A DNA stretch of 64,000 nt from an uncultured Acidobacteriota bacterium (GTDB lineage Bacteria; Acidobacteriota; Blastocatellia; RBC074): contig CAWCKY010000006.1 of assembly GCA_963796275.1 (NCBI GenBank), positions 2,496,001-2,560,000 of the forward strand, written 5' to 3'. Numbering within the stretch: position 1 is the stretch's first letter; the number at the start of each line of letters is the position of its first letter. Positions 6,280 through 34,712 of the stretch are shown here, piece after piece. A program made the position numbers and the translations under genes. The notes under the pieces are model-generated. The model was not told where the DNA came from. It made no database searches and saw only the letters and a list, made by a program, of their open reading frames with translations.

Positions 6280-6612
6280 TCAGACTGCTTTTCTGACTTT
6301 CGCAATGGCCAGGACGAGCCGATCCCAGCTCTCTTCCTCGGCTTTGAGTTGTTTACTTCCTGCCTTGGTCAGCGTGTTGAACTTGGCTCGGCTGCCAGTC
6401 TCAGTTACGCCCCACTTGGAGGTGATCCAACCACGCTGCTCAATCCGGTAGACAGCTGGGTAGAGGGAGCCTTGTTCGACTTCCAGTAACTTGTCAGACA
6501 ACTGCCGAATGCGCTGGATGAGGCCGTAGCCGTGGAGCGGCCCTAAGCTGAGGGCCTTGAGATTGAGCATGTCGAGAGCGCCTTGCAGTATATCCGCCTT
6601 CGGTCGAGTCAA
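6280..6612 (-). CDS. Acidobacterial PadR-family transcriptional regulator
   Basis: LQGALDML.LKALSLGPLHGYGLIQRIRQLS..EQGSLYPAVYRIEQRGWI; GGAGG RBS before TTG start; upstream of an ADOP. Confidence 0.92.
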   Translation of the reverse strand: MTRPKADILQGALDMLNLKALSLGPLHGYGLIQRIRQLSDKLLEVEQGSLYPAVYRIEQRGWITSKWGVTETGSRAKFNTLTKAGSKQLKAEEESWDRLVLAIAKVRKAV

Positions 6613-11039: not shown

Positions 11040-11152
11040 TCAACTCCGAGTCGCCGTCAACCTACGGGTCCGCTATGCCAAGGGCCTAAGGACGCGTGAC
11101 CGATAGGGTGTGAGGGGAAACGCTCACGCCTCCCGTGCTTGGAAAGGAGAAG
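11040..11152 (+). ncRNA. Moco-class riboswitch (molybdenum/tungsten cofactor), apparently lacking P3
   Basis: AACTCCGAG...AACCTA...CTAAG...AGGGTGTGAGGGGAAACGCTCACGCCTCCCGTGCTTGGAAAGGAG then ATG 11155; P1 CTCC/GGAG contains the SD; the GCCTCCCGT...GGAAAGG 3' end resembles the E. coli moaA leader; Mop and Mo-domain genes are adjacent. Confidence 0.85.
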
Positions 11153-11154
11153 GC

Positions 11155-14100
11155 ATGTCAGTTTGGCGGGCGTCGCTAACGCGACGCGGGAATATCCTTC
11201 AAGCCTTCCGTGGATTTTGCGTCTTCCTGACGCCCATATTCACCATTATCTTTCTACTCACCTCGTCTTCTGTCGTGTTGGCGCAAGCCGGCCAGGCGGA
11301 ACTCACCGGCGAGGTACGCGACAGTTCGGGCGCCGGGATCGCGAAGGCGACGATCACCGTGACGCAGATTGAAACGGGGGATGTCACAAAAACGGCATCG
11401 GGGCAAAATGGCGTCTATACCATCACCAATCTGCGTCCCGGTCTCTATACTGTGACCGTCGAGGCAAACAGCTTTCGCCGCTCCGTGCAAGAAGGTGTGC
11501 GGCTGATGACGGGCGAGCGCATACGCCTGGACATGGCTCTGACCGCCGGCGAGATCAACGAGGAGATCAAGGTCACCGGCGACGCTTCGCTGCTGAGGAC
11601 CGAGAGCGGCAGTCTCGGGCAGGTCATTCCGAACCGCCGCATCGTCGATCTGCCGTTGAACGGGCGCAATTTCTTCTCACTTATCTCGCTCGTCCCTGGC
11701 GTCGCCGCGCCTCCGCCGACGACGGCAGGCCCTTCGTTTCCGCGTCTCAACGGCGGCAGACCGCGCGTCAATGAGTACCTCTACGATGGTATCTCTGCGC
11801 TGCAGCCCGAGCCGGGGCAGGTCGCATTCAATCCGGTGATCGATGCCATCCAGGAGTTCAAGGTCGAGGTCAACTCGCCGCCCGCCGAGTTCGGACGCTT
11901 CAACGGAGGCGTCGTCAACTTGACGACCAAATCAGGCACGAATGGATTCCACGGCACGGCGTTTGAATTCTTACGCAACGAAGCGCTCAACGCCCGCAAC
12001 CTGTTTGCGCCCGCGACGCCGGCCAATCCGAATAAGCCGGTTTTTCGCCGCAATCAGTACGGCTTCGCCCTCGGCGGTCCGATCATCAAAGATCGAACCT
12101 TCTTCTTTGGCGATTATCAGGGTGCGCGCCAGCTCATCGGACGAGTTGTAACCTCGAACGTGCCGACGCTCGCGCAGCGCAACGGTAACTTCTCTGCGAA
12201 TCTCGGAGCGCCGCTCTTCCTCCAGACAACGACGACGGGCGGCGTCACGACATCAAGCGCGACGACGACCAATACTGGTGTCCCGATCAACGTCCTTGCT
12301 ACTAACGGTGCTACGATCCAGGCCCGTGTCGGGCAAATCTTCCGCCCGAGCGATAAACTAGCCTATGTGGGCATCGTCAACGGCAACATCGTGGGCAACA
12401 TCATCCCGCTCACCGACTTCGATCCGGTCGCGAGACAACTGCTCGACCGCTATCCGTTGCCGACATCGGCGGGCGCGGCCAACAACTTCCGCCGCGTTGC
12501 CAACGAAGGAACGAATCAGGATCAGTTCGATGTGCGCCTCGATCATCGCTTTTCGGATCGCGACCAGGTCTTCGGGCGCTATTCGTTCTTCAACGAAGAC
12601 GCGACGCCGGTGACGCCGCTGCCTGACGGGAGCGGCGCCATCACACAGGGCGCGCTCGGATTTCAGAAGAGCCGCGGCTATCAGACTGTCGGCAACTACG
12701 TGCACGTTTTCGCCAAGCCGATCGTCAACGAGTTGCGCTTCGGTTATACGCGCCGCTCGATCGACCGCCGAGCGTTGCTGCTCGATGCGCCGCCGTCAGA
12801 GAGCCTGGGGTTACCCGGTATCCCGCAGAATGCGGCTTTTCAGAACGAATTGCCGACCTTCACGATCGCCGGCTTACAACAGCTCGGCCCAACGACGAGC
12901 ACAGACTCGCTCTTCAACACGGATGTGTGGCAGGTCTTCGATTCGGTCGGTTGGCAGCGCGGGCGCCACTCGATGAAGTTCGGCGTCGATTTTCGGATCG
13001 AGCGGCTGAACGTTCTGCAGCCGCCGTCGCCGACAGGCATCTTCAATTTCACCGCGCCTTTCACCAATTCACGAGGGACGGACAATACCATCGGCACACA
13101 GCCGGGCGGTGCGACGACAGGCACCGTGCTGGCCGGGCAGACTGGAAACGCCCTGGGGAGCTTCCTGCTCGGGCAGGTGAGCAACTTCTCGATCGACCTC
13201 CAGCAGGACGTGATTCACCCGCGCGCCCGCATCCTCGAGTTCTTCGCGCAGGACGATTTCAAGGTGACTCCGCGTCTCACCATCAACGCCGGAGTGCGTT
13301 ACACGCTGAACTTCCCATCGACCGAGACCGATAACCAGGGATCGATCTTCAATCTCGAAACGCAACAACTCGAATATCTCGGAGAGAATGGGTTTCCCAG
13401 AGCGGCGCGTCGAGTTGCACAAACTCAACTTCGGGCCGCGCCTCGGGATCGCTTACCGGCTGACCGATCGCACGGTGTTGCGCTCGGGTTACGGTTTGAT
13501 CTGGCAGGAGCAGGCCGGCATCACGACTCCGTTCACGATCCCGCAGTTTCCGTTCATTCAGACCGTCACGCAGCGCTCGCTCGACGGCGTGACGCCAGCG
13601 TTCGTGCTCTCGTCGGGTCCGAACGTCCAGCCCATTCCGCTAACGCCTGATGCGGGATTGGGGCAAGGCGTCTTCTCGGTCGATCGCGATTTGGGAAGCG
13701 GCTACGTCCAGCAATGGAACGTCGCAGTTCAGCGCGAGATCAGCGGCAACCTGGTCGCCGAGGTCGCATATGCGGGGTCGAAGGTCACGCACGTCGGCAT
13801 TCCTGATACGAACATCAATCAACTCACCGCTGAACAACTCGCGCAGGGAAACGCGTTGCTGCAACTGGTGCCGAACCCGTATCTTCGGACAGATCCCGCG
13901 CAATTCCACACTGGGCGACCCGACGATTCCGCGTGCACAGTTGCTACGGCCCTACCCGCGATTCACGGCTGTCAGCCTCTATCGCAACAACGTGGGCAAC
14001 ACGAGCTACCAAGCCCTGCAAGCGAAACTCGAAAAGCGCCTCTCGCGGGGGCTCGCGTTCCTTGTCAGCTATACCCGCTCGAAGCTGATCGACGACGCCG

Positions 14101-14739
14101 GGCAGGTCTTCGATCAGACCATCCAGACCGGACCGGTCGGCAACTTTCCCGTCGCCGACAGTTTCAACCGCGCGCTCGAACGCGACGTCTCGACCGGGGA
14201 CATCCCGAACGTCTTCGTCACCAGCTTCACCTATGAACTGCCGATGGGTAAGGGGCGCGGGTTCAATCTCTCCGGCATTGCCGACAAACTATTCGGCGGA
14301 TGGAATATCAACGGCATGGTTTGGTTGCAGTCGGGGTTGCCGTTCCCGGTCACGCAGATCACGAACTTCAACGCCTTCGCGGGATTCGGCACGCAGCGGC
14401 CGAATATTCTCCGCGATCCGACTCTGGCCGCCGACGAGCGGACGACCGATCGCTGGTTCGACACGTCGGCCTTTGCGGTCGCTCCGCAATTTACGATCGG
14501 GAACTCTTCGCGCAACCCGGTGCGTGGCCCTGGCTACACGCACGGCGGATATCGCGTTTATCAAGCGTACGTATTTCGGTGAGGACATAAACTTCGAATT
14601 CCGCACGGAGATATTCAACCTGACGAACACGCCGCCGCTCGCCAACCCGAACGGCGTGGTTGGCAATGCGGCGTTCGGCACGATCACATCGGCGGGAGAT
14701 CCGCGCGTGATCCAGTTCGGACTGAAGCTGAATTTCTGA
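11155..14739 (+). pseudogene. Oar-like TonB-dependent receptor, split by three +1 frameshifts (~13411, ~13883, ~14538)
   Basis: ORFs 11110, 13388, 13650 and 14233 join into one receptor: carboxypeptidase-regulatory N-domain, DLPLNGRNF, EFLRNEALNARN, NFGPRLGIAY, FNLTNTP, C-terminal PRVIQFGLKLNF; may be sequencing errors. Confidence 0.88.
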
Positions 14740-14802
14740 GGGAGAAAGATACTCCTTATGACCGGTCACCAATGATTCGAGAGGAGGCGTCAATGAGACT
14801 CC

Positions 14803-15306
14803 ATGATAATCCGCGGAATCCTTTGCTCCCTGATCATAACGTTTTACGCCACAGTTCCTGCCCCGGCGCAGACCGGTGAAACGAAGAAAAGCCTGCGGAT
14901 TAGCGGGGAAGTGGAGCGTCCGCTCACTCTCAAAGCCGAGGACCTGGCCAAATTGCCGCGCCGCAGCGTCAGGGCAAAAGACCACAGCGGAAAGGATTCG
15001 GAGTTCGAGGGCTCGCCGCTGGTCGCGGTCTTAACGCTTGCCGGCGTGAAATTCGGCGAAGATCTGCGCGGCAAGAATCTCGAGCTCTACCTCGTGGTCG
15101 AGGCGGCTGACGGTTATCGGGCGGTCTTCGCGCTGCCGGAACTTGATCCAGCCTATACAGACAAGGTCATCCTGCTGGCGGATAAACGCGACGGCAAGGC
15201 GATGGACGCCAGGGAAGGCCCGCTGAGGATCGTCGTGCCCGACGAGAAACGTCAAGCGCGCTGGGTTCGTCAGGTGACTGGGCTTGTCGTCAAACGCGCG
15301 CAATAA
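14803..15306 (+). CDS. Exported molybdopterin-binding-domain (Oxidored_molyb-like) protein
   Basis: Signal peptide; LRISGEVERPLTL..DLAKLP, VEAADGYRAVFALPELDP, EGPLRIVVPDEKRQARWVRQV. Confidence 0.85.
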   Translation: MIIRGILCSLIITFYATVPAPAQTGETKKSLRISGEVERPLTLKAEDLAKLPRRSVRAKDHSGKDSEFEGSPLVAVLTLAGVKFGEDLRGKNLELYLVVEAADGYRAVFALPELDPAYTDKVILLADKRDGKAMDAREGPLRIVVPDEKRQARWVRQVTGLVVKRAQ

Positions 15307-15335
15307 GCGGCTATGAACGGCGGTAGTATCGGAGA

Positions 15336-15545
15336 ATGGGAGTATCCCTCTCCCGGGTGAATCGAGGCATGGCCTTAGAGAAATTGGGACGGGATGATGA
15401 AGCGATGGAGGATTACGAGCAGGCTCAGTCGATCATCTTAGCCATTTGCCGGTGGAGCGATGTTACCCGGTATCGGTTGGACATGGGCATCGCGCTGCAG
15501 CATCCCCGGCAATACGAGCAGGCAATTCATGGAATCCATGAATGA
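15336..15545 (+). pseudogene. TPR-repeat fragment
   Basis: VNRGMALEKLGRDDEAMEDYEQA and LDMGIALQH..QYEQAI TPR-like helices in a short isolated ORF. Confidence 0.5.
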
Positions 15546-15702
15546 CTGAACGCCGTGGAGCCGCTATTTAAAAAATGAAGACCTCTATCCTGTAGTTTCG
15601 CTTTTACCGCTATTCCATATCCGCGCCTGCATGTCATGGACGACTTCTTCAAATTTCCGATAGGGGTTTTCCCGACAGTGCCAGATGTGCATAATGGCGC
15701 GA

Positions 15703-17844
15703 ATGTCTATATATCTTAAACACCTTCTCGGAATCATAATTATCGCTTCAATCGCCGGAGCGACCATTCAACCGGTCGCGCTGGCGCAGACGACAGAACC
15801 GAAAGCCCCGATTCGCTTGGAACCGATAACCGTCCACGTTTACAAAGATCCGGACGACGTGCAGCGGCTCCCGGTCAGCGTCACCGGTGTTTCGGAATCC
15901 GTGCTGCGAGGGGCCGGCGTCCTCAGGGTCAGCGACGCTGGAATTCTGGCGCCGAATACTTTTTTCTCGGAGTTCACGGCGCGCAAGCTCAGTAATGCGC
16001 GCTTTCGCGGGATCGGTTCGAGCCCGTCGAATCCCGGCATCACGACCTACATCGACGGTGTACCGCAACTCAATACAAATTCTTCAAGCATCGAGTTACT
16101 GGACATCGAGCAGATAGAATTCGTCCGCGGACCTCAGAGCGCGCTGTTCGGACGCAATACCCTTGGTGGACTCGTCAATATCACGACTCAACGGCCTGAA
16201 ATGAAGGGATGGACGGGCGGTCTCACAGTCCCGCTAGCCAATTACTCGGAATGGGATGCGAGAGCGAACATTTCAGGGCCGATCAGCGAGAAAGCCGGCG
16301 TCCGCGTGACGGTCGGGCGTGGGACGCGCGATGGTTACACGATCAACGATGTCACGGGAAACGATCTGGACTATCGAAGGACGTCCTATGGCAAGGCTCA
16401 ATTGTGGTGGGCGCCAACCAGCAGGTGGGAAGCGCGTTTGATTGTCACCGGCGAGCGGGATCAGGACGGCGATTATGCGCTCAACGACCTGGCGGCACTG
16501 CGCCAGAATCCGTTTCGTTCGTCGCGGGACTTCGAGGGAATAGTGGAGCGGGATGTTCTGGCATCGACCGTTCAGGTCCGTCGGGAAGGGAGCCGTTTTG
16601 CATTCAGCACCACCGCCGGCCTGGTGAACTGGAAGACGCGGGACGTCACCGACCTGGACTACACTGCGCGCCCATTGATCACGCGGGACAATAAAGAAAA
16701 GGATGTACAGTTCACCCAGGAAGTGCGGCTCGCATCGGCTGCCGGCGCCCCCGTCAGATTGGGGGACCGCGTGAGGTTGCGATGGCAGACCGGAGCGTTC
16801 TTCTTCTCGCAGAACTACGATCAGGACGCGATCAATAACTTCTCGCCTTTCCTCCTTTCCCCCCAGGTGGGATTTCCGGTGGCACAGCATTCTCCTCGGT
16901 CGGCGCTGAACGACACGGGCGCTGGCGTGTACGGGCAGATGACGGCGACCTTCAGCGAGAGCTTCGACCTGACGTTCGGCGCCCGCGTCGATCACGAAAA
17001 CAAGCGAGCGGACCTGCGCACGTTTTTCGATCCTGCAATCAGTCCCGAAAACAGAGTAATAGCGAAGAAAGGCTTCTCCAATGTGTCCCCACAGTTGGCG
17101 GCATCGTACCGGTTTGCGGGAAGTCGCATGGTCTATGCGTCGGTCGGCCGCGGATACAAGGCCGGGGGCTTCAATCCTGCATCGCCGGCAGGCAGCGAGG
17201 CCTATGGAGAAGAAGGAGCGTGGCACGTCGAGAGCGGCGTCAAGACACTGCTGGCCGGCGGCAAGTTGTCCGCCAACGCTGCGCTGTTCTACATCGACTG
17301 GAGCGGCTTGCAACTGAATGTGCCGAATCCGGCCGTGCCGGCGCAGTTCTTTATCAGGAACATCGGGCGCGCCACTAGCAAGGGATTCGAAGCCGAGCTC
17401 AACGCGCGGCCTCACGCCAATTTGGATCTTTTCGCCACTTTCGGATTGACGAATGCGCGGTTCGCGGATGCTACGTCTTCTGGAGGAGTCGACGTATCCG
17501 GTAACAAACTGCCCAGCGCGCCGGATCACACCTTCACCGTTGGGGCGCAGGTTACGAAGGACCTCAAAAGCAGCTTCGCACTCTACGGCCGCGGCGAGGT
17601 ATGGTTCAACGGCGGGTTCGAATACAATGACGCCAACACGCAAAGGCAGGAGGCGTATTCACTCGCGAATATCCGAGCCGGATTGCGCGGGCGATATATG
17701 TTTGTGGAAGCATGGATCAAGAACGCGTACGACACTCGGTATATTCCGATCGCTTTCGCCTACGGCAGCTTTGCGCCTTCTGGCTTCGTGGGTGAAATGG
17801 GAGCGCCGCGCCGTATTGGAATCACGATGGGCTTGACGTTTTAA
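15703..17844 (+). CDS. Classical TonB-dependent receptor (plug + barrel)
   Basis: LEPITV TonB box, RFRGIGS, YIDGVP, IEQIEFVRGPQSALFGRNTLGG, GYKAGGFN, terminal F; ORF open from 15685, ATG 15703 lies 7 nt after CATAAT. Confidence 0.92.
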   Translation: MSIYLKHLLGIIIIASIAGATIQPVALAQTTEPKAPIRLEPITVHVYKDPDDVQRLPVSVTGVSESVLRGAGVLRVSDAGILAPNTFFSEFTARKLSNARFRGIGSSPSNPGITTYIDGVPQLNTNSSSIELLDIEQIEFVRGPQSALFGRNTLGGLVNITTQRPEMKGWTGGLTVPLANYSEWDARANISGPISEKAGVRVTVGRGTRDGYTINDVTGNDLDYRRTSYGKAQLWWAPTSRWEARLIVTGERDQDGDYALNDLAALRQNPFRSSRDFEGIVERDVLASTVQVRREGSRFAFSTTAGLVNWKTRDVTDLDYTARPLITRDNKEKDVQFTQEVRLASAAGAPVRLGDRVRLRWQTGAFFFSQNYDQDAINNFSPFLLSPQVGFPVAQHSPRSALNDTGAGVYGQMTATFSESFDLTFGARVDHENKRADLRTFFDPAISPENRVIAKKGFSNVSPQLAASYRFAGSRMVYASVGRGYKAGGFNPASPAGSEAYGEEGAWHVESGVKTLLAGGKLSANAALFYIDWSGLQLNVPNPAVPAQFFIRNIGRATSKGFEAELNARPHANLDLFATFGLTNARFADATSSGGVDVSGNKLPSAPDHTFTVGAQVTKDLKSSFALYGRGEVWFNGGFEYNDANTQRQEAYSLANIRAGLRGRYMFVEAWIKNAYDTRYIPIAFAYGSFAPSGFVGEMGAPRRIGITMGLTF

Positions 17845-17898
17845 ATGTTGGGCACCGGTCGCTTCGCGGCGGGAACCTTGATGATTGGAGAGAGACCT

Positions 17899-18684
17899 AT
17901 GAGTCCAGCGATCACGGCGAGACAACTGGATGCCCGGGCGGTTCTGCAATATAAGGAAGACGGATTCCTTATCGTTCGCGGCGTCTTCTCGGCCGATGAA
18001 ATCTCCGCGCTCGACGGAGAGGCGGAGCGCCTTTACCACCGCAGCGACCTCATCGATACCGATAACATCCGCTGCCGCTGGCAAAATCACTTTCAGACGG
18101 GGGAATGCCGCTTCGATTGCTTCGATCCTGTCATCGATCTCAGCTCCGCTTACGAACGCGTTGCGCGCAGCCAGCATCTGCTCGATCTCGTAGGACAGCT
18201 CTACGGAGAGCGTGCGTGTCTCTTCAAGGATAAGCTGATCTTCAAGCCTCCCGGCGCAGAAGGTTACCACCTTCATCAGGATTACATCTCGTGGGATTCC
18301 TTTCCCACCAGCTTTCTCACCGCAGTCGTCGCTATCGATGCCTGCGATCGGGAGAATGGAGCGACCGAGGTCTTTCGCGGCTATCATCTCCGCGGATACA
18401 TGTCGCCCAAGGACGGAATGTATCACCAACTGCCGGACGAATCCGTGGACACATCGGCGGGGGTCGTTTTGACTTTATCTCCCGGCGATGTCGCCATCTT
18501 CAGTGGATATACGCCGCACCGTTCATCTCCCAATCGTTCCGGCCGCAGCCGGCGCCTGCTCTACCTGAGCTACAACGCATTCAGTGATGGCGGCGAACAG
18601 CGTGACCGTCATTACGCCGAGTTTGCGGATTGGCTGAAGGACCGATATGCCGAATACGGCAAGACGATGACGTACTTCCGATAG
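17899..18684 (+). CDS. PhyH-family Fe(II)/2-oxoglutarate dioxygenase
   Basis: YKEDGFLIVRGVFS, FKDKLIFKPPG, HQD...H(TPHRSSPNRS..SR) facial triad, ENGATEV; GGAG RBS upstream. Confidence 0.92.
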   Translation: MSPAITARQLDARAVLQYKEDGFLIVRGVFSADEISALDGEAERLYHRSDLIDTDNIRCRWQNHFQTGECRFDCFDPVIDLSSAYERVARSQHLLDLVGQLYGERACLFKDKLIFKPPGAEGYHLHQDYISWDSFPTSFLTAVVAIDACDRENGATEVFRGYHLRGYMSPKDGMYHQLPDESVDTSAGVVLTLSPGDVAIFSGYTPHRSSPNRSGRSRRLLYLSYNAFSDGGEQRDRHYAEFADWLKDRYAEYGKTMTYFR

Positions 18685-18688
18685 TTCT

Positions 18689-19921
18689 ATGAGCTTGATC
18701 AACTCTTGTATAAACGTCCTGATCGCCGCGTTAATTATGGTTGCAACGCTGCCCGGCAGGACACAGGGTTTGGGACTGATTACCGAGCCGCTGCTGCGCG
18801 ATCTGAATGTGGACCGTGTCACGTATGCCCACATTAACCTATGGGCGACACTTCTCGGGGCGATTGTTTGCCTGCCCGCCGGAAGGATCTTCGATCGATT
18901 GGGCCTGCGAATCGCGACCACATTGATCACGGCGCTGCTAAGCTTCGTTGTATGGCAAATGAGCGGCCTCGCGGGCGGAATCGCGGCTCTCTTCGTCCTG
19001 GTCTTTGCGACCCGCGCGCTCGGGCAGAGCGCACTTTCAGTTGCGAGCATCACGCTCGTGGGGAAAGCGTTCGATCGCCGCGTCGGTTTCGCCATGGGCG
19101 TCTATTCCGTGCTCTTGAGCATGTTTTTTGCAGGCGCATTCATCATTGTCGGCAGCGTCGTGCGCAATACCGGCTGGCGCGAAGCCTGGTCAGGAATCGC
19201 ATTGGTGTTGGTCTTGTTTATCGCGCCCGCTGTGCTGGTGTTTATTCGTGAGCCCGGCAGAGCCTCGCCCGCGCAAGAGGAGAAAGGCGCCGCCGGAGGC
19301 GAAGATCTCTCGTTGCGAGATGCCCTGGGGACATCCGCCTTCTGGGTATTCGCAGGCGCAACCTCTCTCTATGGCCTGGTGGCTTCGGGGCTGGGGTTGT
19401 TTAACGAAGCTCTGCTGGCCGAACGCGGCTTCAGCCAGGAGACTTATCATAAGTTTCTGGCGGGAACGGCAATCATTGCGCTGTTCGGGCAGCTCGGCTG
19501 CGGTCTGATGACGTTGCGGTGGTCGATGCAGCGGCTTGCCGCCTACGCTTTGTTCGCGTACGCGGTGGCATTGGTCGCGTTTCCTTTTTTGACGACGCTG
19601 CCCCAGCTCTGGGGGTTTGCGGCACTGATGGGTTTCTCCGGCGGAATGATCACCGTGATCTTCTTTGCCATCTGGCGCCGCGCCTATGGGATGACGCACC
19701 TGGGCCGGATTCAGGGGGCCGCCCAGATGCTGACCGTCCTGGCTTCAGCCATCGGGCCGTTGCTGTTCGCGAAAAGCGTAGAGCTGACGGGTTCTTATAT
19801 GCCGGTTCTGCGATTGCTCGCGCCCGCAGTCGCTTTGTTGGGCATTGCTGCATTGCGCGTGCGCTTGCCTTTGACACCGGCGCCCGTCGAAGCTGCGCCG
19901 GATCACGTAGCCGTAAGATGA
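18689..19921 (+). CDS. MFS transporter
   Basis: About 12 hydrophobic segments; GRIFDRLGLR motif A; YGMTHLGRIQG. Confidence 0.9.
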   Translation: MSLINSCINVLIAALIMVATLPGRTQGLGLITEPLLRDLNVDRVTYAHINLWATLLGAIVCLPAGRIFDRLGLRIATTLITALLSFVVWQMSGLAGGIAALFVLVFATRALGQSALSVASITLVGKAFDRRVGFAMGVYSVLLSMFFAGAFIIVGSVVRNTGWREAWSGIALVLVLFIAPAVLVFIREPGRASPAQEEKGAAGGEDLSLRDALGTSAFWVFAGATSLYGLVASGLGLFNEALLAERGFSQETYHKFLAGTAIIALFGQLGCGLMTLRWSMQRLAAYALFAYAVALVAFPFLTTLPQLWGFAALMGFSGGMITVIFFAIWRRAYGMTHLGRIQGAAQMLTVLASAIGPLLFAKSVELTGSYMPVLRLLAPAVALLGIAALRVRLPLTPAPVEAAPDHVAVR

Positions 19922-19938
19922 AGGTATAGGGAGGTCGT

Positions 19939-21003
19939 ATGACAGCTATTGATGCTTCGCTTATCAAATTTCACATTTCGCTCACTGCCAGCAACCTTGA
20001 CCGTTCTATCGCATTCTACCGCGCTCTTCTCGGTACGGAACCGGCAAAGGTCCGTGATGATTACGCCAAGTTCGAGCTTGCCGAACCGCCGCTCGTTCTA
20101 TCGTTAATCCCCGGTGGTGTCGGCGGAAACGTCAACCATGCGGGATTGCGCGTACGAACCGCCGATGAACTGGTAGACATTCAGCGGCGGCTCGAGATTG
20201 CAGGCATCGTGACCCAGCGCGAGGAGGGAGTTGAGTGCTGCTATGCCCTGCAGACCAAGTTTTGGGTCGCCGATCCGGATCGGATGCTGTGGGAGGTTTA
20301 TCTTTTCCATGAAGATATCGACGAACGTGGAGACGCCACCGTTCCGGTCGCAGCGCTCAACGCTCCAGTTTCTCTATCGTCAAAGCCGCTCTCGAACTGG
20401 ACGCACCGTCTGGGCAGCGCTTTCCCCGACCGAATTCCTCATGACGACAACTCGCTGAATGAAGTGTTGCTTGAAGGAAGCTTCAACGCGGAGCGTGACA
20501 ATGTAAACCGCGACAAGCTGATGGCCGAAGCGCTGCGGGTGCTGCGGCCCGGCGGTGAAATACGATTGCACATGCTGACAGGCGACTCTTCCGGAAATTA
20601 CGGAAAGCTTTCTCTACCGGGTCCGGCATCGGCTGTAGGGTACGCGCCGATGCCATCAGAGCTGACGGCCGCTCTGACTCGATCGGGGTTCCGCGACGTT
20701 CACATCGTCCTGCTATCGCAAAAGCCGTGTTTCGTGGCTGAAGGAGTGGCGATGCGCGAGTGCCGCATCCAGGCGAGGAAACCCGGCCACCGGACGCAGC
20801 AGAAACAGCATCACGCGGTCTATCGCGGGCCTCTAGCCGAAGTAACGGACGACTACGGCAACGTGTTTCGGCGGGGAGAACTCACGCCGTTGAATGTGCA
20901 CGACTGGCAGATGCTATCGAAGGGAGACGCGGCTGCATCATTCGTGTTCATGACGCCGGGTGAGAGGAGCGAGGCTGCTTGCTCTTCAGTCGTTGACCTA
21001 TGA
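19939..21003 (+). CDS. ArsI/CadI-family VOC metalloenzyme fused to a truncated methyltransferase-like domain
   Basis: FHISL...DDYAKF...NHAGLRV...ECCYALQTKFWVADPD...WEVY (ArsI signature); then IPHDDNSL.EV...AEALRVLRPGG and AVYRGPLAEVTDDYGNVFRRGE; GGGAGG RBS. Confidence 0.85.
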   Translation: MTAIDASLIKFHISLTASNLDRSIAFYRALLGTEPAKVRDDYAKFELAEPPLVLSLIPGGVGGNVNHAGLRVRTADELVDIQRRLEIAGIVTQREEGVECCYALQTKFWVADPDRMLWEVYLFHEDIDERGDATVPVAALNAPVSLSSKPLSNWTHRLGSAFPDRIPHDDNSLNEVLLEGSFNAERDNVNRDKLMAEALRVLRPGGEIRLHMLTGDSSGNYGKLSLPGPASAVGYAPMPSELTAALTRSGFRDVHIVLLSQKPCFVAEGVAMRECRIQARKPGHRTQQKQHHAVYRGPLAEVTDDYGNVFRRGELTPLNVHDWQMLSKGDAAASFVFMTPGERSEAACSSVVDL

Positions 21004-21354
21004 TGTTCGTTGATCGAACTGGAAGCTGCAACAGCCAAGATCCAGCACGCGCGCGTGTGCACGGCTGCGCCTGATTCTTTCCGGTACGACGTACAGGTGC
21101 TCCCGCCCATGTTTTTCGAGGTCGAGCAGTCCTGCTTCCCGAAGGATCCTGAGGTGTCTCGAAACGTTGTAGTACTCCAAGCCCAACCGGCGCGCAATTT
21201 CGCAGACGCCGAGAGGAGCGTCCATTAACAGACCGATGATGCGAACGCGATTGTCCTCGCCGAGCGCCTTGAGCGCATTCACGCAGTCGCCCCCGTCATA
21301 AAGCGGCAAATCGGGCTGCTTCTTCGCGATTCTTTGAGTGATAGATTTGCCCAT
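20998..21354 (-). CDS. ArsR/SmtB family transcriptional regulator
   Basis: DCVNALKALGEDNRVRII..L...LGVCEIA...NVSRHLRILREAGL..EKHGR; C-terminal LDLGCC. Confidence 0.9.
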   Translation of the reverse strand: MGKSITQRIAKKQPDLPLYDGGDCVNALKALGEDNRVRIIGLLMDAPLGVCEIARRLGLEYYNVSRHLRILREAGLLDLEKHGREHLYVVPERIRRSRAHARVLDLGCCSFQFDQRTS

Positions 21355-21874
21355 CGAAACGGATTATAGCATGAAGGGAATTTTGGATTGAGGGCCATAC
21401 AGGCAGGCGAGTTACCCTTCTTGTGCATGCGGGCGCGGCAGACTGTCGCAGTAGTTCTTTCGCAATTATCCACGAGCAGAAAATTAAGAGATAACAGGAC
21501 AAACGGAAACTACTTCAGGCTGGAGCTGTTGACATGGATGTTTATAGTCCCGCCTGACACAAGTCGTAAGTGAATTGCTTAAGAAGCGCTCCATGGTTTC
21601 GTTCAGATTAGGAATTTCGTCTTTGCCTGCACCCGCAATGAACAGAAGTATCCTATGGTAGATCGCTGACCGATCTCCCCGTGCACGGATATGCAAATCG
21701 CATTGCCTGGCCGAATCTTACGGTTGATCGGATTGTTGGGCCGGTGTCGCTTTAATTGCGAGCTATACTCCAGCGCGGCGCGCAACTAAGGTTTATCGAT
21801 ACAGGCGCCAGTTAGGCATCTAGTCTATGAGCGTCGTCGCTGATCTAGCACCAGGTGAAACTTCAGCCAGTCAG

Positions 21875-22609
21875 TCACTGGTTCCTCCATCCAGGCTCGT
21901 CTCGATCGAGGATCCGCTTCAAAGCCTCAAAATGAAGCAGGTATTGCTTCTCTTCGGCGATCTGCCGGCCGGTCAGCGCTGCGATCGAATCGTCAACGAG
22001 CTTCAGCGGTTTGCCAGTACTTTGAGCCAGGACTTGCACCATGCAAGTACGTTCGAGGTAATAGAGATCATTGAATGCTCTGGCCACTGAATCGCCGCAT
22101 ACGATCACACCGTGATTGGAGAGAAATAGGACATCCGCATTTTGCGTCTGCGCCGTGATACGGTCGCCTTCTTCCGGATCGAGCACCAGACCGTTGTAGC
22201 ATTCGTCGTAAGCCACGCGGCCATAAAACCGCAGCGCATTCTGATTCGCCCATTCCAGCCTGCCACCGTCAATGATAGTAAGCGCTGTCGTATAAGGCAT
22301 ATGCGTGTGCAGCACGCAAGCAGCGTTCGGTTTCCCCAGATGAAGCCGCCCGTGAATAAAAAACGCTGTCGCTTCGACCTCATGCCTGCCTTCGATGATA
22401 TTTCCATCGGAGTCGGTCATGACCAGATCAGCAGGTGTAATCTCAGACCAGTGCAATCCTTGCGGATTTATCAGAAAGCGATCGGCGGTGCCCGGAACTG
22501 CAAGACTGAAATGATTGCAGATACCTTCATTAAACCCTAATCGCTCTGCCCATCGAAGAGCTGCCGTGAGGTCGATTCGCGCTTGAACTATTCTATCGTC
22601 ATAGTGCAT
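21875..22609 (-). CDS. Class II aldolase/adducin family protein
   Basis: EGICNHFS, FLINPQGLHWSEI, EATAFFIH, CVLHTHMPY, LSNHGV; GGAGG RBS before ATG 22609. Confidence 0.9.
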   Translation of the reverse strand: MHYDDRIVQARIDLTAALRWAERLGFNEGICNHFSLAVPGTADRFLINPQGLHWSEITPADLVMTDSDGNIIEGRHEVEATAFFIHGRLHLGKPNAACVLHTHMPYTTALTIIDGGRLEWANQNALRFYGRVAYDECYNGLVLDPEEGDRITAQTQNADVLFLSNHGVIVCGDSVARAFNDLYYLERTCMVQVLAQSTGKPLKLVDDSIAALTGRQIAEEKQYLLHFEALKRILDRDEPGWRNQ

Positions 22610-28179: not shown

Positions 28180-29274
28180 TCAGTCTCCCGCCCCCGCGCC
28201 AAGACTGGCGCCGTTCTCGTGACGCGCTTCGAGCTGGTCGAGCTTGTTCATCATCTGCACGCTGTGAACCAGCGCGATTCCGGCCGCCATCGCGCTGGCG
28301 ACGTGGACTGCTTCGCTCATCTGCGCTTCGCTCACGTGCATCTTGTGCAGTGTCGCGGTGTAGGAGTCTATGCAATAGGGGCATTTCAGCGCGTGCGACA
28401 CCGCCAGCGCAATCAGAGCTTTCTCGCGCCTGGTCAGCTCGCCGTCCGCCATGACCTGCCCGTAATAGGCGAAGAAGCCTTCCGCCATTTTCGGATTGGC
28501 GCGGCTGATTTCGCTGAAGCGGCCCAGGTCTTGCCGTTGATAATAGTTGCCGTAGCTGCCGCTCGCCGCATGGCCGTTGGCGCTGGCTGTCGCGGTCTCT
28601 GATGAGGTTTCGGCCCCGCAGCAGGAGATCGAGGCGGGATCGATCTTTTCGGGATTGGCCGGGCGCAGATCGCACCCCATCTTGTCGGGATTGACCTTCA
28701 GTGCGCCGTAAGCGAACTCAAGCGGAATGCCCGTATTTTCGCCTTCATCCGGGGGGTACAGCCAATGCTTCTCAGCCACCTCTACGTGGCAGCAGTAAAC
28801 GGGACGATCCGGGCCGCCCTGAGAGGCGTGCGCCCAATTGAGCGTCTGTGCCGCGGCTGGCAATGCGTCGAAGGTTTGGCGGACTGCCGCGGTTTCATCG
28901 CGCAGGTCGATTCCGATGTGATCCAGGAAAGGGCGCGGGCGGCGATTGGCTTCGGTCTCCAACAGTTCGTCCTGCGAGACTTTGATGTGGGAGAAGATGG
29001 CGTTGATGGCTCCGGGAAAACGATATTTGACGAAACCGTCTTTTTGATGATCGAGCCGCGCCCCCAAGTCGAAGAACTGATTGATCGGCAGCATGTGCGT
29101 ATCATCTACCTTGATGTGAAGATGCAAAGTCTCAGCCAACTCGACCGCGCCGTCGAGCGGCGAGTCAGGCGCGCCCAGACGGTTGACGACTTCAATTTCT
29201 CGGTTGTTGAGCAGGCCGCATTCTTGTAAGGCTTTGAGACTGGCGATCGCTTCGTCGTTGTTTCGAAATTTCAT
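28180..29274 (-). CDS. Fusion of a divergent VOC-like domain (CC motif) and an arsenosugar-biosynthesis-associated AhpD/CMD peroxidase-like domain
   Basis: N part LHLHIKVDD..LDHIGIDL..YCCHVEVAEKHWLYPP..LEFAYG; C part YYQRQDLGRF..FFAYYGQVMADGELTRREKALIALAVSHALKCPYCIDSYT..EAVHVA..LVHSVQMMNK (TIGR04169-like). Confidence 0.85.
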   Translation of the reverse strand: MKFRNNDEAIASLKALQECGLLNNREIEVVNRLGAPDSPLDGAVELAETLHLHIKVDDTHMLPINQFFDLGARLDHQKDGFVKYRFPGAINAIFSHIKVSQDELLETEANRRPRPFLDHIGIDLRDETAAVRQTFDALPAAAQTLNWAHASQGGPDRPVYCCHVEVAEKHWLYPPDEGENTGIPLEFAYGALKVNPDKMGCDLRPANPEKIDPASISCCGAETSSETATASANGHAASGSYGNYYQRQDLGRFSEISRANPKMAEGFFAYYGQVMADGELTRREKALIALAVSHALKCPYCIDSYTATLHKMHVSEAQMSEAVHVASAMAAGIALVHSVQMMNKLDQLEARHENGASLGAGAGD

Positions 29275-33998: not shown

Positions 33999-34605
33999 AT
34001 GTCCAAGTCCGACACAAAAGGCCTTTCTCGCCGTGGTTTCATCAAAACTGCCGGCAGCTTGCCGTCTTATTGAATGGAGACAACCTGCTCGATCGGCGCC
34101 AGCTGGAAGGGCTGTCCACCTTTGACTGTCAAACGGGATTATCGAAAGAGAAGGACGTCGAATTCGATTTCACGCGTCAGTCCGCCGCTTTGCAGCCGGA
34201 CAAAATCGTAGACAGCGCTTGCCAGTTCTGTAATTCCCTGTGTCGCCTGAAAGTGCATATGAAGAGCGGGCGTATCATCGATATTCTGGGTGAGCCCGAC
34301 GATCCGGTTCAGGCGGGGAACTTTTTATATAAAGGGGCCGATGATGACGCAACTGGTCTATAACCGCCATCGCCTCACGACTCCCTTGAAACGGGTCTCC
34401 GGGGAGAAGGGCTCGCCCGATTCCCAATTCTCCCCGATCTCATGGGATGAAGCGCTGACAACCATTGCACAGAAATTCCTTGCGCTAAGAGACGCCGGCG
34501 AGGCGAGAGCGATTGCGAATAGAACATCGGGCCGGTTGCCGCGCGGGCCGGGTTCACTGGTCAATCGTTTCTTTACGCTCCTCGGAAGTCCGAACGATTA
34601 TTGCA
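33999..34605 (+). pseudogene. Truncated Tat-exported DMSO-reductase-family molybdopterin oxidoreductase
   Basis: GAGGAG RBS, MSKSDTKGLSRRGFIK Tat motif; frameshift; CQFCNSLC Fe-S motif with the expected fourth Cys read as Tyr; frameshift; RLTTPLKR..ISWDEAL..IA; homology ends at LLGSPND. Confidence 0.85.
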
Positions 34606-34712
34606 AGGGAAGGTTCACGGGTTTCCGCTCGCCGCCGAACGCCTGGCAGTCTGTTAGTGATCTGTCCGATAAGAGTTGAGCTGAAGTTAGTATTCAGCAG
34701 GTTGAATGAATT

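What the first reader, a model, noticed from the sequence alone, without database searches (positions are those of the whole stretch)
19939..21003. ArsI C-As lyase fused to a methyltransferase-like domain that lacks the SAM-binding motif
The first ~125 aa keep the ArsI hallmarks: His/His/Glu metal ligands in FHI, NHA and WEV, plus CCYAxQxKxW. The remainder has only the second half of a class I methyltransferase fold (IPxxDNS..EALRVLRPGG) with no GxGxG motif I. It ends in a YRGP..V.DD.G.V.RRGE extension that I recall from long ArsM-like methyltransferases in arsenosugar-type clusters. A demethylating domain joined to a probably inactive methyltransferase body suggests a repurposed substrate-binding or scaffolding module (inference).
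Basis: partly seen in the sequence, partly recalled or inferred. Interest (0 to 1): 0.8.

Follow-up and report, generated by a model that had tools for sequence, protein, structure and literature searches.

The report
ArsI lyase fused to ArsM relic
This gene encodes an arsenic-carbon bond-cleaving enzyme joined to a crippled remnant of an arsenic methyltransferase; it sits in a gene cassette shared by three soil bacterial phyla that may be an undescribed route for breaking down organic arsenic compounds.

Summary
Window 19939-21003 (+) is a real 354-aa gene. Residues 10-133 are an ArsI/CadI-type VOC dioxygenase scoring over NCBIfam's cut-off, with the Fe(II) ligands (H12, H67, E119) and the substrate Cys pair (C100-C101) in place. 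Residues 154-338 are a relic of an ArsM/AS3MT arsenic methyltransferase. The relic keeps strand 1, strands 4-7 and the ArsM-specific C-terminal subdomain. It has lost the SAM-binding segment and both arsenic-binding cysteines, so methyl transfer is very unlikely. The relic is nevertheless almost as conserved as the catalytic domain.

The fusion is not an assembly oddity: hundreds of relatives occur in Planctomycetota, Verrucomicrobiota and Acidobacteriota, and their VOC domains form one clade apart from the canonical ArsI I sampled. The gene ends a tight operon of TonB receptor, PhnY*-like 2-oxoglutarate dioxygenase (two invariant cysteines), MFS transporter and the fusion. A convergent ArsR carries a conserved C-terminal Cys pair. 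The dioxygenase/MFS/fusion trio recurs across all three phyla.

Most likely this is an ArsR-controlled organoarsenical C-As cleavage module, with the relic acting as a recognition or docking domain. Substrate, transport direction and the relic's role are untested. My literature searches found no description of it.

The parts
15685..17844 (+). TonB-dependent outer-membrane receptor, first gene of the apparent operon
   Evidence: Pfam Plug + TonB_dep_Rec_b-barrel. TIGR01783 siderophore-receptor subfamily scores 149.5 bits, below its cut-off. A homologue is present in 17 of 80 related loci: Acidobacteriota, Verrucomicrobiota and one Tepidisphaeraceae. The gene ends 1 nt before the next gene starts.
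17845..18684 (+). PhyH-family Fe(II)/2-oxoglutarate dioxygenase, closest to methylphosphonate hydroxylase PhnY*
   Evidence: Pfam PhyH E 7e-29. NF052437 methylphosphonate hydroxylase scores 91 bits, far below its cut-off of 500. It is the best family for 22 of 22 cassette partners, best E 1.3e-30, against 3e-12 for ectoine hydroxylase. H144, D146, H225 and R236 are invariant, and so are two cysteines, C77 and C88. At the aligned positions ectoine hydroxylase has no cysteine.
18689..19921 (+). MFS transporter, direction of transport unknown
   Evidence: Pfam MFS_1 E 8e-27. The only NCBIfam hit is the L-lactate transporter SfMCT, 48.9 bits, below its cut-off. No PDB sequence match. A homologue lies upstream on the same strand in 51 of 63 loci with enough flank.
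19939..21003 (+). The fusion gene (354 aa + stop)
19966..20322 (+). ArsI-type VOC dioxygenase domain (aa 10-128) with H12/H67/E119 and C100-C101
   Evidence: The full-length model matches C-As lyase 5cb9 at Foldseek E 1.7e-10, 42% identity. Mean column identity is 0.85.
20323..20397 (+). Variable, disordered linker (aa 129-153)
   Evidence: pLDDT is below 50 for residues 128-150. Mean column identity is 0.45.
20398..20787 (+). Truncated class I methyltransferase core (aa 154-283): strand at the strand-1 position, then strand 4 to strand 7; no SAM-binding segment
   Evidence: VIA-align gives Z 12.4 to CrArsM 5evj, rmsd 3.2, 131 residues spread over chain range 82-277; generic methyltransferases are tied at Z 10-12. 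Mean column identity is 0.70.
20806..20952 (+). ArsM/AS3MT-type C-terminal subdomain (aa 290-338; YRGP..DD.GN.FRRG..)
   Evidence: The A2 profile aligns here with human AS3MT 8xt7 residues 223-289 and CmArsM up to residue 339. ArsM Foldseek hits span 185-210 of 215 columns, generic methyltransferases 125-175. Mean column identity is 0.81.
20953..21000 (+). Poorly conserved tail with one Cys (C348)
   Evidence: A tail Cys is present in 92 of 119 long forms among the best 120 hits (CC in 37), and in 33 of 55 long forms in the loci.
20998..21354 (-). ArsR/SmtB repressor, convergent, overlapping the 3' end of the fusion gene by 6 nt; C-terminal LGCC pair
   Evidence: Pfam HTH_5 E 1.3e-12. NF033788 scores 66.6 bits against a cut-off of 55. 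ArsR-like ORFs lie in 37 of 80 related loci. By my reading of the listing, about 33 of these loci carry the GCC pair, in all three phyla. One database protein (P0171, 471 aa) is the fusion protein joined to an ArsR HTH.

Best explanation
The gene encodes a member of a widespread, uncharacterised subfamily of ArsI-type Fe(II) dioxygenases. Shown: the N-domain keeps the complete ArsI active site, namely the metal triad and the vicinal Cys pair. The C-terminal 200 residues descend from an ArsM/AS3MT arsenic methyltransferase. They have lost the SAM-binding segment and the two arsenic-binding cysteines, yet stay under strong constraint. The gene belongs to a conserved cassette with a PhnY*-like 2OG dioxygenase, an MFS transporter and a Cys-pair ArsR. 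Inferred: (1) the VOC domain binds a trivalent organoarsenical through C100-C101 and cleaves its C-As bond with O2, as ArsI does; (2) the ArsM relic cannot methylate and serves as a substrate-recognition, gating or docking module built on the former arsenic-binding face; (3) the neighbouring dioxygenase, whose two invariant cysteines could also hold a trivalent arsenical, hydroxylates the carbon substituent in a two-oxygenase breakdown analogous to PhnY*/PhnZ for methylphosphonate; (4) ArsR switches the operon on when its Cys pair binds the arsenical; (5) the MFS, with the TonB receptor in diderm lineages, moves substrate or product.
For: ArsI identity and residues. ArsM ancestry of the C-part: NF040538 is hit by 23 of 23 family members, best E 1e-14. 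The top PDB profile hits are only ArsM/AS3MT, E 3.5e-5 to 5e-5. The first 12 Foldseek hits are ArsM/AS3MT. Loss of methyltransferase features: no motif I in 0 of 150 relatives. The ArsM Cys of SNCVIN aligns with invariant G180, and the Cys224 loop aligns with LPGPAA. The model has no helix A to helix C. Constraint: column identity is 0.70 and 0.81 in the two C-subdomains against 0.85 for the VOC domain and 0.45 for the linker. Fusion is the rule: 57 of 58 representatives of at least 330 aa that carry the C-domain also carry the VOC domain. One origin: in the tree the fused VOC domains separate from 27 canonical ArsI with support 100/99. Cassette: of 63 loci with at least 2500 nt upstream, PhyH is present in 56, MFS in 51, both in 46, either in 61. 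No other gene family recurs in more than 9 of 80 loci, apart from ArsR (37) and the TonB receptor (17). Cysteine motifs occur in all three soluble partners. A natural fusion of the protein with ArsR exists, P0171. A two-Cys C-terminal ArsR site responds to MAs(III): PMC11868830, passages. PhnY*/PhnZ precedent: PMC6581173, abstract in the listing.
Against: No activity data exist for any member. No classical arsenic genes (arsB/acr3, arsC, arsH, arsP, arsM) lie in the window or recur in the flanks. A TonB receptor plus MFS looks like uptake, which is odd for a toxic substrate. The fused VOC domains sit on a long stem (1.29 changes per column in the quick tree). They also score lower against NF041414 than the genome's two canonical ArsI, 132.5 against 158-162 bits, so specificity or chemistry may have shifted. 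The PhyH match to PhnY* is far below the curated cut-off, 91 against 500 bits. Inter-domain geometry is not predicted with confidence (pTM 0.46). Short forms without the C-terminal subdomain exist in about 15 Planctomycete loci, so that subdomain is not indispensable.
Confidence: 0.6

Rival explanations
1. It is an ordinary ArsI methylarsenite demethylase. The ArsM relic is only a stabilising or oligomerisation appendage, and the PhyH and MFS neighbours serve an unrelated purpose.
For: The score is above the NF041414 cut-off and the active site is complete. Short forms and VOC-only ORFs occur in Gemmataceae.
Against: The genome already has two canonical arsI genes. The fused clade is separated by a long, well supported branch. 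The PhyH/MFS linkage is kept across three phyla. The relic's C-terminal subdomain is nearly as conserved as the catalytic domain.
Confidence: 0.2
2. The cassette degrades a phosphonate (C-P), not an arsenical. The PhnY*-like enzyme hydroxylates it, and the VOC domain stands in for the HD-domain oxygenase PhnZ.
For: The best family for all 22 PhyH partners is methylphosphonate hydroxylase. No PhnZ-like gene recurs in the flanks. TonB receptor plus MFS suggests nutrient uptake. VOC enzymes of the Fos type act on a phosphonate, and the family gives weak Fos hits.
Against: The vicinal Cys pair is invariant. The regulator is an ArsR with a Cys pair. The C-domain comes from an arsenic methyltransferase. 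The PhyH match is far below the family cut-off.
Confidence: 0.08
3. The protein is not an enzyme but an arsenical-binding buffer, chaperone or sensor that hands a thiol-bound arsenical to the MFS or to ArsR.
For: Cys-containing tails are common. Tandem Gemmataceae paralogues split the CC pair and the tail Cys between two copies. A fusion to ArsR exists.
Against: The Fe(II) triad is conserved as strictly as the cysteines, which a pure binding protein would not need.
Confidence: 0.05
4. The C-domain is still an active methyltransferase that binds SAM in a non-canonical way or with a partner supplying the missing half.
For: The fold is clearly methyltransferase-derived.
Against: There is no motif I, no strand 2/strand 3 region, and the arsenic-binding cysteines are absent. 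No gene for a complementing half recurs nearby.
Confidence: 0.02

Closest known systems
ArsI C-As lyase (Bacillus sp. MD1; Thermomonospora curvata, PDB 5c4p/5cb9)
   Same: VOC fold, Fe(II) ligand positions, vicinal Cys pair and about 40% identity over 115-120 residues. The score is above the NF041414 cut-off.
   Different: 354 aa instead of about 120-160, because of the added ArsM-derived domain. It forms a separate clade on a long stem. It is not in a classical ars operon but sits with a 2OG dioxygenase and an MFS transporter.
ArsM / AS3MT arsenite S-adenosylmethionine methyltransferase (CmArsM 4fr0, CrArsM 5evj, human AS3MT 8xt7; NF040538 arsinothricin-type ArsM)
   Same: Strand 4 to strand 7 of the core and the family-specific C-terminal domain are homologous.
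   Different: It lacks the N-terminal region, motif I and strands 2-3. The positions of ArsM's C-terminal arsenic-binding cysteine pair, Cys174 and Cys224, hold Gly and the LPGPAA loop. The region with the N-terminal pair (Cys44, Cys72) is absent altogether. It scores 39 bits against a cut-off of 500.
PhnY*/PhnZ oxidative methylphosphonate pathway (Gimesia maris)
   Same: A PhyH-family 2OG hydroxylase, whose closest characterised family is PhnY*, is paired with a second non-haem iron oxygenase and a transporter. The pathway itself is known to me only from the abstract of PMC6581173 in the search listing.
   Different: The second enzyme is a VOC/ArsI type, not an HD-domain PhnZ. The hydroxylase has two invariant cysteines. 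The regulator is an ArsR. The substrate is presumed to be an arsenical.
Anamorsin N-terminal domain
   Same: A methyltransferase-like domain that is not annotated as a methyltransferase. It gives weak sequence hits and a clear fold match: PF20922 E 0.017 and 4m7r Foldseek E 3.4e-7.
   Different: No arsenic link and no ArsM C-terminal subdomain. That anamorsin's domain does not bind SAM is recalled, not checked here.
AfArsR / SpArsR type ArsR with C-terminal cysteines
   Same: The cassette's ArsR has a conserved vicinal Cys pair near the C-terminus. [quoted passage not shown]
   Different: The motif context (LDLGCC.F) and an additional N-terminal Cys differ. Ligand specificity is untested.

Membership tests
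ArsI/CadI VOC metalloenzyme (NF041414) | Score above the curated equivalog cut-off | tested here: met
   130.1 bits against a cut-off of 116, residues 10-133. All 23 of 23 aligned relatives match.
ArsI/CadI VOC metalloenzyme (NF041414) | Fe(II) ligand triad at the TcArsI Gln8/His65/Glu117 positions | tested here: met
   H12, H67 and E119 align to these positions (residue roles from PMC6138428). Conserved in 117-120 of 120 relatives.
ArsI/CadI VOC metalloenzyme (NF041414) | Vicinal cysteine pair for the trivalent arsenical | tested here: met
   C100-C101 align to Cys98-Cys99. Present in 120 of 120 best hits. In the loci the second Cys is present in 79 of 87 rows; 7 of the misses are the Gly/Ala tandem paralogues and 1 is a gap.
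ArsI/CadI VOC metalloenzyme (NF041414) | VOC fold | tested here: met
   Foldseek to 5cb9 E 1.7e-10, 42% identity, 115 columns. Domain pLDDT is about 77-93, with a dip to 65 at residues 61-70.
ArsI/CadI VOC metalloenzyme (NF041414) | Single-domain protein encoded in an ars operon | tested here: not met
   Two-domain 354-aa protein. The neighbours are PhyH, MFS, TonB receptor and ArsR; no arsB/acr3/arsC/arsH/arsP is present.
ArsI/CadI VOC metalloenzyme (NF041414) | C-As lyase activity | not testable with these tools
   Needs an enzyme assay.
ArsM/AS3MT arsenite methyltransferase | SAM-binding motif I and strands 1-3 of the class I fold | tested here: not met
   Pfam matches only positions 53-93 of 95. 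No motif I in 0 of 150 relatives. The model has one strand followed directly by strand 4.
ArsM/AS3MT arsenite methyltransferase | Four conserved cysteines (CmArsM 44, 72, 174, 224) | tested here: not met
   The region holding the first two is absent. The Cys of SNCVIN aligns with G180, and the Cys224 loop aligns with LPGPAA. No invariant Cys occurs in the C-domain.
ArsM/AS3MT arsenite methyltransferase | Family-specific C-terminal domain | tested here: met
   Profile alignment to 8xt7 residues 223-289 and to CmArsM 180-339. ArsM hits span 185-210 of 215 model columns.
ArsM/AS3MT arsenite methyltransferase | Curated family score | tested here: not met
   NF040538 39.2 bits against 500. NF008823 12.7 bits against 263.
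PhnY*/PhnZ-type oxidative C-X cleavage pathway | PhnY*-type 2OG hydroxylase | tested here: inconclusive
   NF052437 is the best family for 22 of 22 partners, but at 91 bits against a cut-off of 500. The HxD...H triad is invariant.
PhnY*/PhnZ-type oxidative C-X cleavage pathway | HD-domain oxygenase PhnZ | tested here: not met
   No further gene family recurs in more than 9 of 80 flanks. The second oxygenase is the VOC fusion.
ArsR/SmtB metalloregulator with C-terminal (type 2-like) site | HTH_5 domain and family score | tested here: met
   PF01022 E 1.3e-12. NF033788 66.6 bits against 55.
ArsR/SmtB metalloregulator with C-terminal (type 2-like) site | C-terminal vicinal cysteines; a third cysteine for As(III) | tested here: inconclusive
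   The GCC pair is conserved. An N-terminal Cys is also common and might act as a third ligand. Binding was not tested.

The most novel reading that the evidence does not exclude
The cassette is an undescribed aerobic two-oxygenase pathway for an organoarsenical that plain ArsI handles poorly, for example dimethylated arsenic, arsinothricin-like or longer-chain alkyl arsenicals. A cysteine-bearing PhnY*-like hydroxylase activates the carbon, and the ArsI domain then cuts the C-As bond. The former arsenic-binding face of an ArsM, stripped of its thiols and SAM site, supplies substrate recognition or couples the two enzymes.
Probability: 0.25. Interest if true: 0.85.

Novelty: new variant of a known kind. 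Interest (0 to 1): 0.65.

Why it matters
ArsI is the only characterised C-As lyase, and it is known as a small single-domain enzyme. How soils degrade methylated and more complex organoarsenicals is only partly understood, including dimethylarsenate, which causes rice straighthead disease. The 2023 and 2026 abstracts listed still call the drivers of demethylation unresolved.

This family is common in abundant, poorly studied soil phyla. It joins a lyase to a methyltransferase relic and is always partnered with a second oxygenase. That makes it a concrete, testable candidate for a missing step of the arsenic cycle. It is also a clear case of an enzyme domain recycled after losing its cofactor site. 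Cultured carriers exist for experiments: Limnoglobus roseus PX52, Zavarzinella formosa DSM 19928 and Anatilimnocola sp. NA78.

Tried and rejected
- Oligomer and partner binding: complex prediction for a homodimer was unavailable. Whether the relic dimerises or docks the PhyH enzyme remains open.
- ESM Atlas: neither the query nor the homologue P0117 was held.
- Expression: no RNA holder was listed, and the DNA holders carried only small shares (at most 0.12) of the sampled words. I laid no reads.
- Promoter and operator search: 0 sigma-70-like sites in 14700-21900, and the terminator-like sites were not convincing. No inverted repeats in 15300-15700 or 21340-21880.
- Earlier findings of this scan: nothing by place, sequence or words.
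- MFS transporter against PDB sequences: no match.
- Context of the genome's two canonical arsI genes: the 3.4-kb loci were uninformative.
- A complete ArsI-ArsM fusion as an evolutionary intermediate: none appeared among the 120 listed near-length hits or the 150 C-domain representatives. The 'longer' length class was not searched.
- Arsinothricin-specific ancestry of the relic: considered because NF040538 scores best. Not accepted, because general ArsM/AS3MT structures match the same region, and the shorter ArsM models (NF008823, 272 positions, against 356 for NF040538) may simply not reach the C-terminal domain (my assumption, not checked).
- VIA-align: it did not separate ArsM from generic methyltransferases for the truncated core (Z 12.4 against 10-12). 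The ArsM-specific signal comes from sequence profiles and from Foldseek alignments that include the C-terminal subdomain. Those alignments have high global rmsd (about 11 A), so the subdomain arrangement may differ from ArsM.
Full report
**The gene**

Window 19939-21003 (+) is an intact 354-aa ORF with an ATG start. The opposite strand holds only short fragments. The window has 55.5% G+C and no N. It lies in a 9.46-Mb genome of 7 contigs, at G000:C6:2496001-2560000. An acidobacterial PadR paralogue model matches at 6280-6612. The closest fusion relatives are Blastocatellia MAGs. The host is therefore an acidobacterium.

**N-terminal domain**

- NCBIfam NF041414 (ArsI/CadI) scores 130.1 bits over residues 10-133; the curated cut-off is 116.
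- Pfam sees only the generic Glyoxalase/VOC family.
- The best solved relatives are all T. curvata C-As lyase entries, E about 1e-23.
- In that alignment H12, H67 and E119 fall on Gln8, His65 and Glu117, and C100-C101 fall on Cys98-Cys99. A review I read in passages names these as the Fe(II) ligands and the organoarsenical site (PMC6138428).
- In the 120 best database hits the five positions are kept in 117, 118, 120, 120 and 120 rows. The misses are gaps in truncated rows.
- In 87 locus-encoded copies the counts are 84, 86, 85, 86 and 79. Of the 8 rows without the second Cys, 7 (6 Gly, 1 Ala) are a distinct paralogue and 1 is a gap.
- The full-length AlphaFold model (mean pLDDT 79.3) has a confident VOC domain. 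Its best Foldseek hit is C-As lyase 5cb9, E 1.7e-10, 42% identity.

**C-terminal part**

- Pfam Methyltransf_11 touches only profile positions 53-93 of 95, E 0.013.
- NCBIfam's arsinothricin-type ArsM model NF040538 aligns positions 169-320 of 356 with residues 170-319. E is 4.5e-10, but 39 bits is far below the cut-off of 500.
- All 23 of 23 aligned family members give this hit, best E 1e-14.
- I built a profile (A2) from 19 sequences that start after, or late in, the VOC domain and so cover essentially only the C-terminal part. Its top PDB matches were only arsenic methyltransferases: human AS3MT 8xt7 at 3.5e-5 and CmArsM entries at about 5e-5. The matches cover CmArsM residues 180-339, which includes the domain after the methyltransferase core.
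- The model of residues 140-354 is confident (pLDDT 89.8, pTM 0.68). Its first 12 Foldseek hits are ArsM/AS3MT, E 1e-10 to 2.7e-9, over 185-210 columns. Generic methyltransferases follow at 1e-7 or worse, over fewer columns.
- Caveat: the global rmsd of the ArsM alignments is about 11 A, so the two subdomains may be arranged differently than in ArsM.
- VIA-align on the truncated core alone does not separate ArsM (Z 12.4, rmsd 3.2, 131 residues) from other class I methyltransferases (Z 10-12).

**What the relic has lost**

- The model has one strand (aa 153-157), a coil, then the elements that align with strand 4, helix D, strand 5, helix E and strands 6-7.
- The VIA alignment places 131 residues across ArsM residues 82-277. 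About 65 ArsM residues are skipped, which I read as helix A to helix C.
- No motif-I-like G.G.G occurs in any of the 150 representative relatives.
- The Cys of ArsM's SNCVIN motif aligns with the invariant G180.
- The loop holding CmArsM Cys224 aligns with the invariant LPGPA motif. Cys174 and Cys224 bind the arsenical in ArsM (PMC6138428).
- No cysteine is invariant in the C-domain.
- Methyl transfer is therefore very unlikely.
- The relic is still constrained. Mean column identity is 0.70 for the core and 0.81 for the C-terminal subdomain. It is 0.85 for the VOC domain, 0.45 for the linker and 0.33 for the tail.
- The residues that stay conserved (G180, N183, H211, D216, LPGPA, R273, E274) lie where the alignments place ArsM's substrate-binding loops. 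I infer a re-lined pocket. This was not checked in 3D.

**The fusion is a family, not an accident**

- A search of 5.8 billion clustered proteins gave 2078 hits at E 1e-3 or better among 8000 scored candidates. The 120 listed are 57-100% identical, and most cover 94-100% of the query; a few are fragments.
- A scan of one genome per species found 599 pattern matches, of which 573 encode a relative. Among the 80 kept, by my count of record titles, 58 are Planctomycetota, 11 Acidobacteriota, 7 Verrucomicrobiota and 4 carry other or no phylum labels.
- Cultured carriers include Limnoglobus roseus PX52, Zavarzinella formosa DSM 19928, Gemmata sp. IIL30 and Anatilimnocola sp. NA78.
- Searching with the C-domain alone against 1.84 billion representatives gave 395 clusters at E 1e-3 or better.
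- Of the 58 listed representatives of at least 330 aa, 57 also carry the VOC domain. The exception, P0236, matches only the C-terminal subdomain. Four ORFs of about 200 aa might be stand-alone C-domains or fragments.
- In 201 sampled Acidobacteriota genomes, 26 have an ArsI over the cut-off, but only the window's genome has the fused form. That genome also has two canonical 162-aa-frame arsI genes.
- A maximum-likelihood tree of 114 VOC domains separates the 87 fused copies from the 27 canonical ArsI with ultrafast bootstrap/SH-aLRT support of 100/99. The stem was 1.29 changes per column in the quick tree.
- The acidobacterial and verrucomicrobial copies nest within planctomycete ones, but the root is only a midpoint.
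- One outgroup row (L124) comes from a genome flagged unpublished (G024). No claim depends on it.

**Variants**

- About 15 Planctomycete loci encode a short form that ends right after strand 7, without the ArsM C-terminal subdomain.
- Seven loci have two tandem copies. The upstream copy has VCG (VCA in one copy) instead of ECC and carries a Cys-containing tail. The downstream copy has the CC pair and no tail Cys. The cysteines that sit together in the window's protein are thus split between two proteins.
- The L. roseus genome has 5 matches to the C-domain profile, Z. formosa has 7 and Anatilimnocola has 1.
- One Z. formosa region holds a 189-aa ORF with the VOC domain joined directly to the C-terminal subdomain.
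- One database protein (P0171, 471 aa) is the fusion protein followed by an ArsR HTH.

**Context**

- In the window the genes are packed as follows:
  - TonB-dependent receptor, 15685-17844;
  - PhyH-family dioxygenase, 17845-18684;
  - MFS transporter, 18689-19921;
  - the fusion, 19939-21003;
  - an ArsR on the other strand, overlapping the fusion's end, 20998-21354.
- I found a fusion ORF in 79 of the 80 related loci; in L064 it ran off the contig end.
- Of the 63 loci with at least 2500 nt upstream, 56 have the PhyH gene upstream on the same strand, 51 the MFS, 46 both and 61 at least one.
- An unbiased clustering of all flanking ORFs found no other recurrent family beyond ArsR (37 loci) and the TonB receptor (17 loci). 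Nothing else exceeded 9 loci, and no classical ars genes recur.
- Each of the four whole genomes I searched has one or two copies of this PhyH subfamily. In each genome one copy lies next to a fusion gene; the second, lower-scoring Z. formosa copy was not checked.

**The PhyH partner**

- All 22 of 22 partners match NCBIfam's methylphosphonate hydroxylase (PhnY*) best. The best E is 1.3e-30, against 3e-12 for ectoine hydroxylase, but the score is far below the cut-off (91 against 500 bits).
- The HxD...H iron ligands are invariant.
- Two cysteines, C77 and C88, are also invariant. They lie in a segment where solved ectoine hydroxylases have none.

**The ArsR**

- It carries a conserved LGCC motif near its C-terminus. 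I saw this in about 33 loci by eye in the listing, across all three phyla.
- According to passages of PMC11868830, AfArsR binds As(III) with Cys95, Cys96 and Cys102. [quoted passage not shown]

**Interpretation**

All three soluble proteins of the cassette carry conserved cysteine motifs. The regulator is of the arsenic-sensing kind, and the relic comes from an arsenic enzyme. I therefore read the cassette as an organoarsenical module.

- The shown part is the anatomy.
- The inferred part is the chemistry. The VOC domain binds a trivalent arsenical on C100-C101 and cleaves C-As with O2, like ArsI.
- The PhnY*-like enzyme may hydroxylate the carbon substituent first. This would be analogous to PhnY*/PhnZ, a pathway I know only from the abstract of PMC6581173 in the listing.
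- The relic may recognise the substrate or dock a partner.

Points against this reading:
- there are no classical ars genes nearby;
- the TonB receptor and MFS give the cassette the look of an uptake system;
- the long stem and the lower family score of the fused VOC domain suggest a shift in function;
- the PhnY* match is sub-threshold;
- the inter-domain geometry of the model is uncertain (pTM 0.46);
- there is no experimental or expression evidence.

The main rivals are a plain ArsI with a structural appendage, a phosphonate pathway, a non-catalytic arsenical binder, and a still-active methyltransferase. I rank them at about 0.20, 0.08, 0.05 and 0.02.

**Novelty**

Full-text searches found no description of this fusion or cassette. 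The searches were:
- ArsI with C-As lyase and fusion;
- ArsI with phytanoyl-CoA dioxygenase;
- dimethylarsenate, demethylation, ArsI and dioxygenase;
- arsI with Planctomycetes, Acidobacteria and organoarsenical;
- C-As lyase, methylarsenite and 2-oxoglutarate.

A 2018 survey of ars genes, read in passages, lists other fusions but not this one (PMC6205960). Subscription journals and supplements were not covered. Sources name the protein only as a 'catechol 2,3-dioxygenase-like lactoylglutathione lyase family enzyme' or 'hypothetical protein'. I rate it a new variant of a known kind, with a real chance of marking an undescribed pathway.

Noticed in passing
window 28180-29274 (-): A 364-aa ORF whose C-terminal 110 residues match TIGR04169, the 'arsenosugar biosynthesis-associated peroxidase-like protein' (153.6 bits, cut-off 120; AhpD/CMD fold). 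The N-terminal 240 residues match nothing, so the ORF may be over-extended. It is the only other arsenic-flavoured hit in the window.
   Followed up: no
window 11110-14739 (+): A large CarboxypepD_reg/OMP_b-brl_4 outer-membrane receptor seems to be broken. The 846-aa ORF covers only profile positions 1-441 of 838. The rest continues in overlapping ORFs in other frames (13388-14236, 13650-14582, 14233-14739). This could be frameshifts, a pseudogene or assembly errors.
   Followed up: no
window 17845-18684 (+) and alignment A3: The PhyH-family dioxygenase next to the fusion has two invariant cysteines (C77, C88) in a segment where solved ectoine hydroxylases have none. This may be a thiol site for a trivalent arsenical.
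   Followed up: partly
L026, L028, L040, L041, L045, L048, L082: Planctomycete genomes (mostly Gemmataceae) carry tandem pairs of the fusion gene with complementary cysteines. The upstream copy has VCG (VCA in one copy) plus a Cys tail. The downstream copy has ECC and no tail Cys.
   Followed up: partly
protein P0171 (471 aa, from the representative library): A natural fusion of the whole ArsI-ArsM-relic protein with an ArsR-type HTH at residues 386-430. It could be a Rosetta-stone link to the regulator or a read-through gene call.
   Followed up: no
L126 3316-4973 (Zavarzinella formosa scaffold region): Further architectures: a 189-aa ORF with the VOC domain joined directly to the ArsM C-terminal subdomain, a VOC-only ORF, and a C-domain-only ORF, next to an MFS gene.
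   Followed up: no
G000:C6:2837197-2837571 and G000:C2:736431-736793 (L001, L002): The same genome has two nearly identical canonical arsI genes (162-aa frames, 162 and 158 bits) on different contigs. One lies beside an ECF-type sigma factor gene.
   Followed up: partly
window 41630-43393 (+) and 34290-34679 (+): An IS481-family transposase-like ORF (93.5 bits, below its cut-off), and a 129-aa ORF that matches only the first 76 positions of the molybdopterin oxidoreductase family, probably a gene fragment.
   Followed up: no
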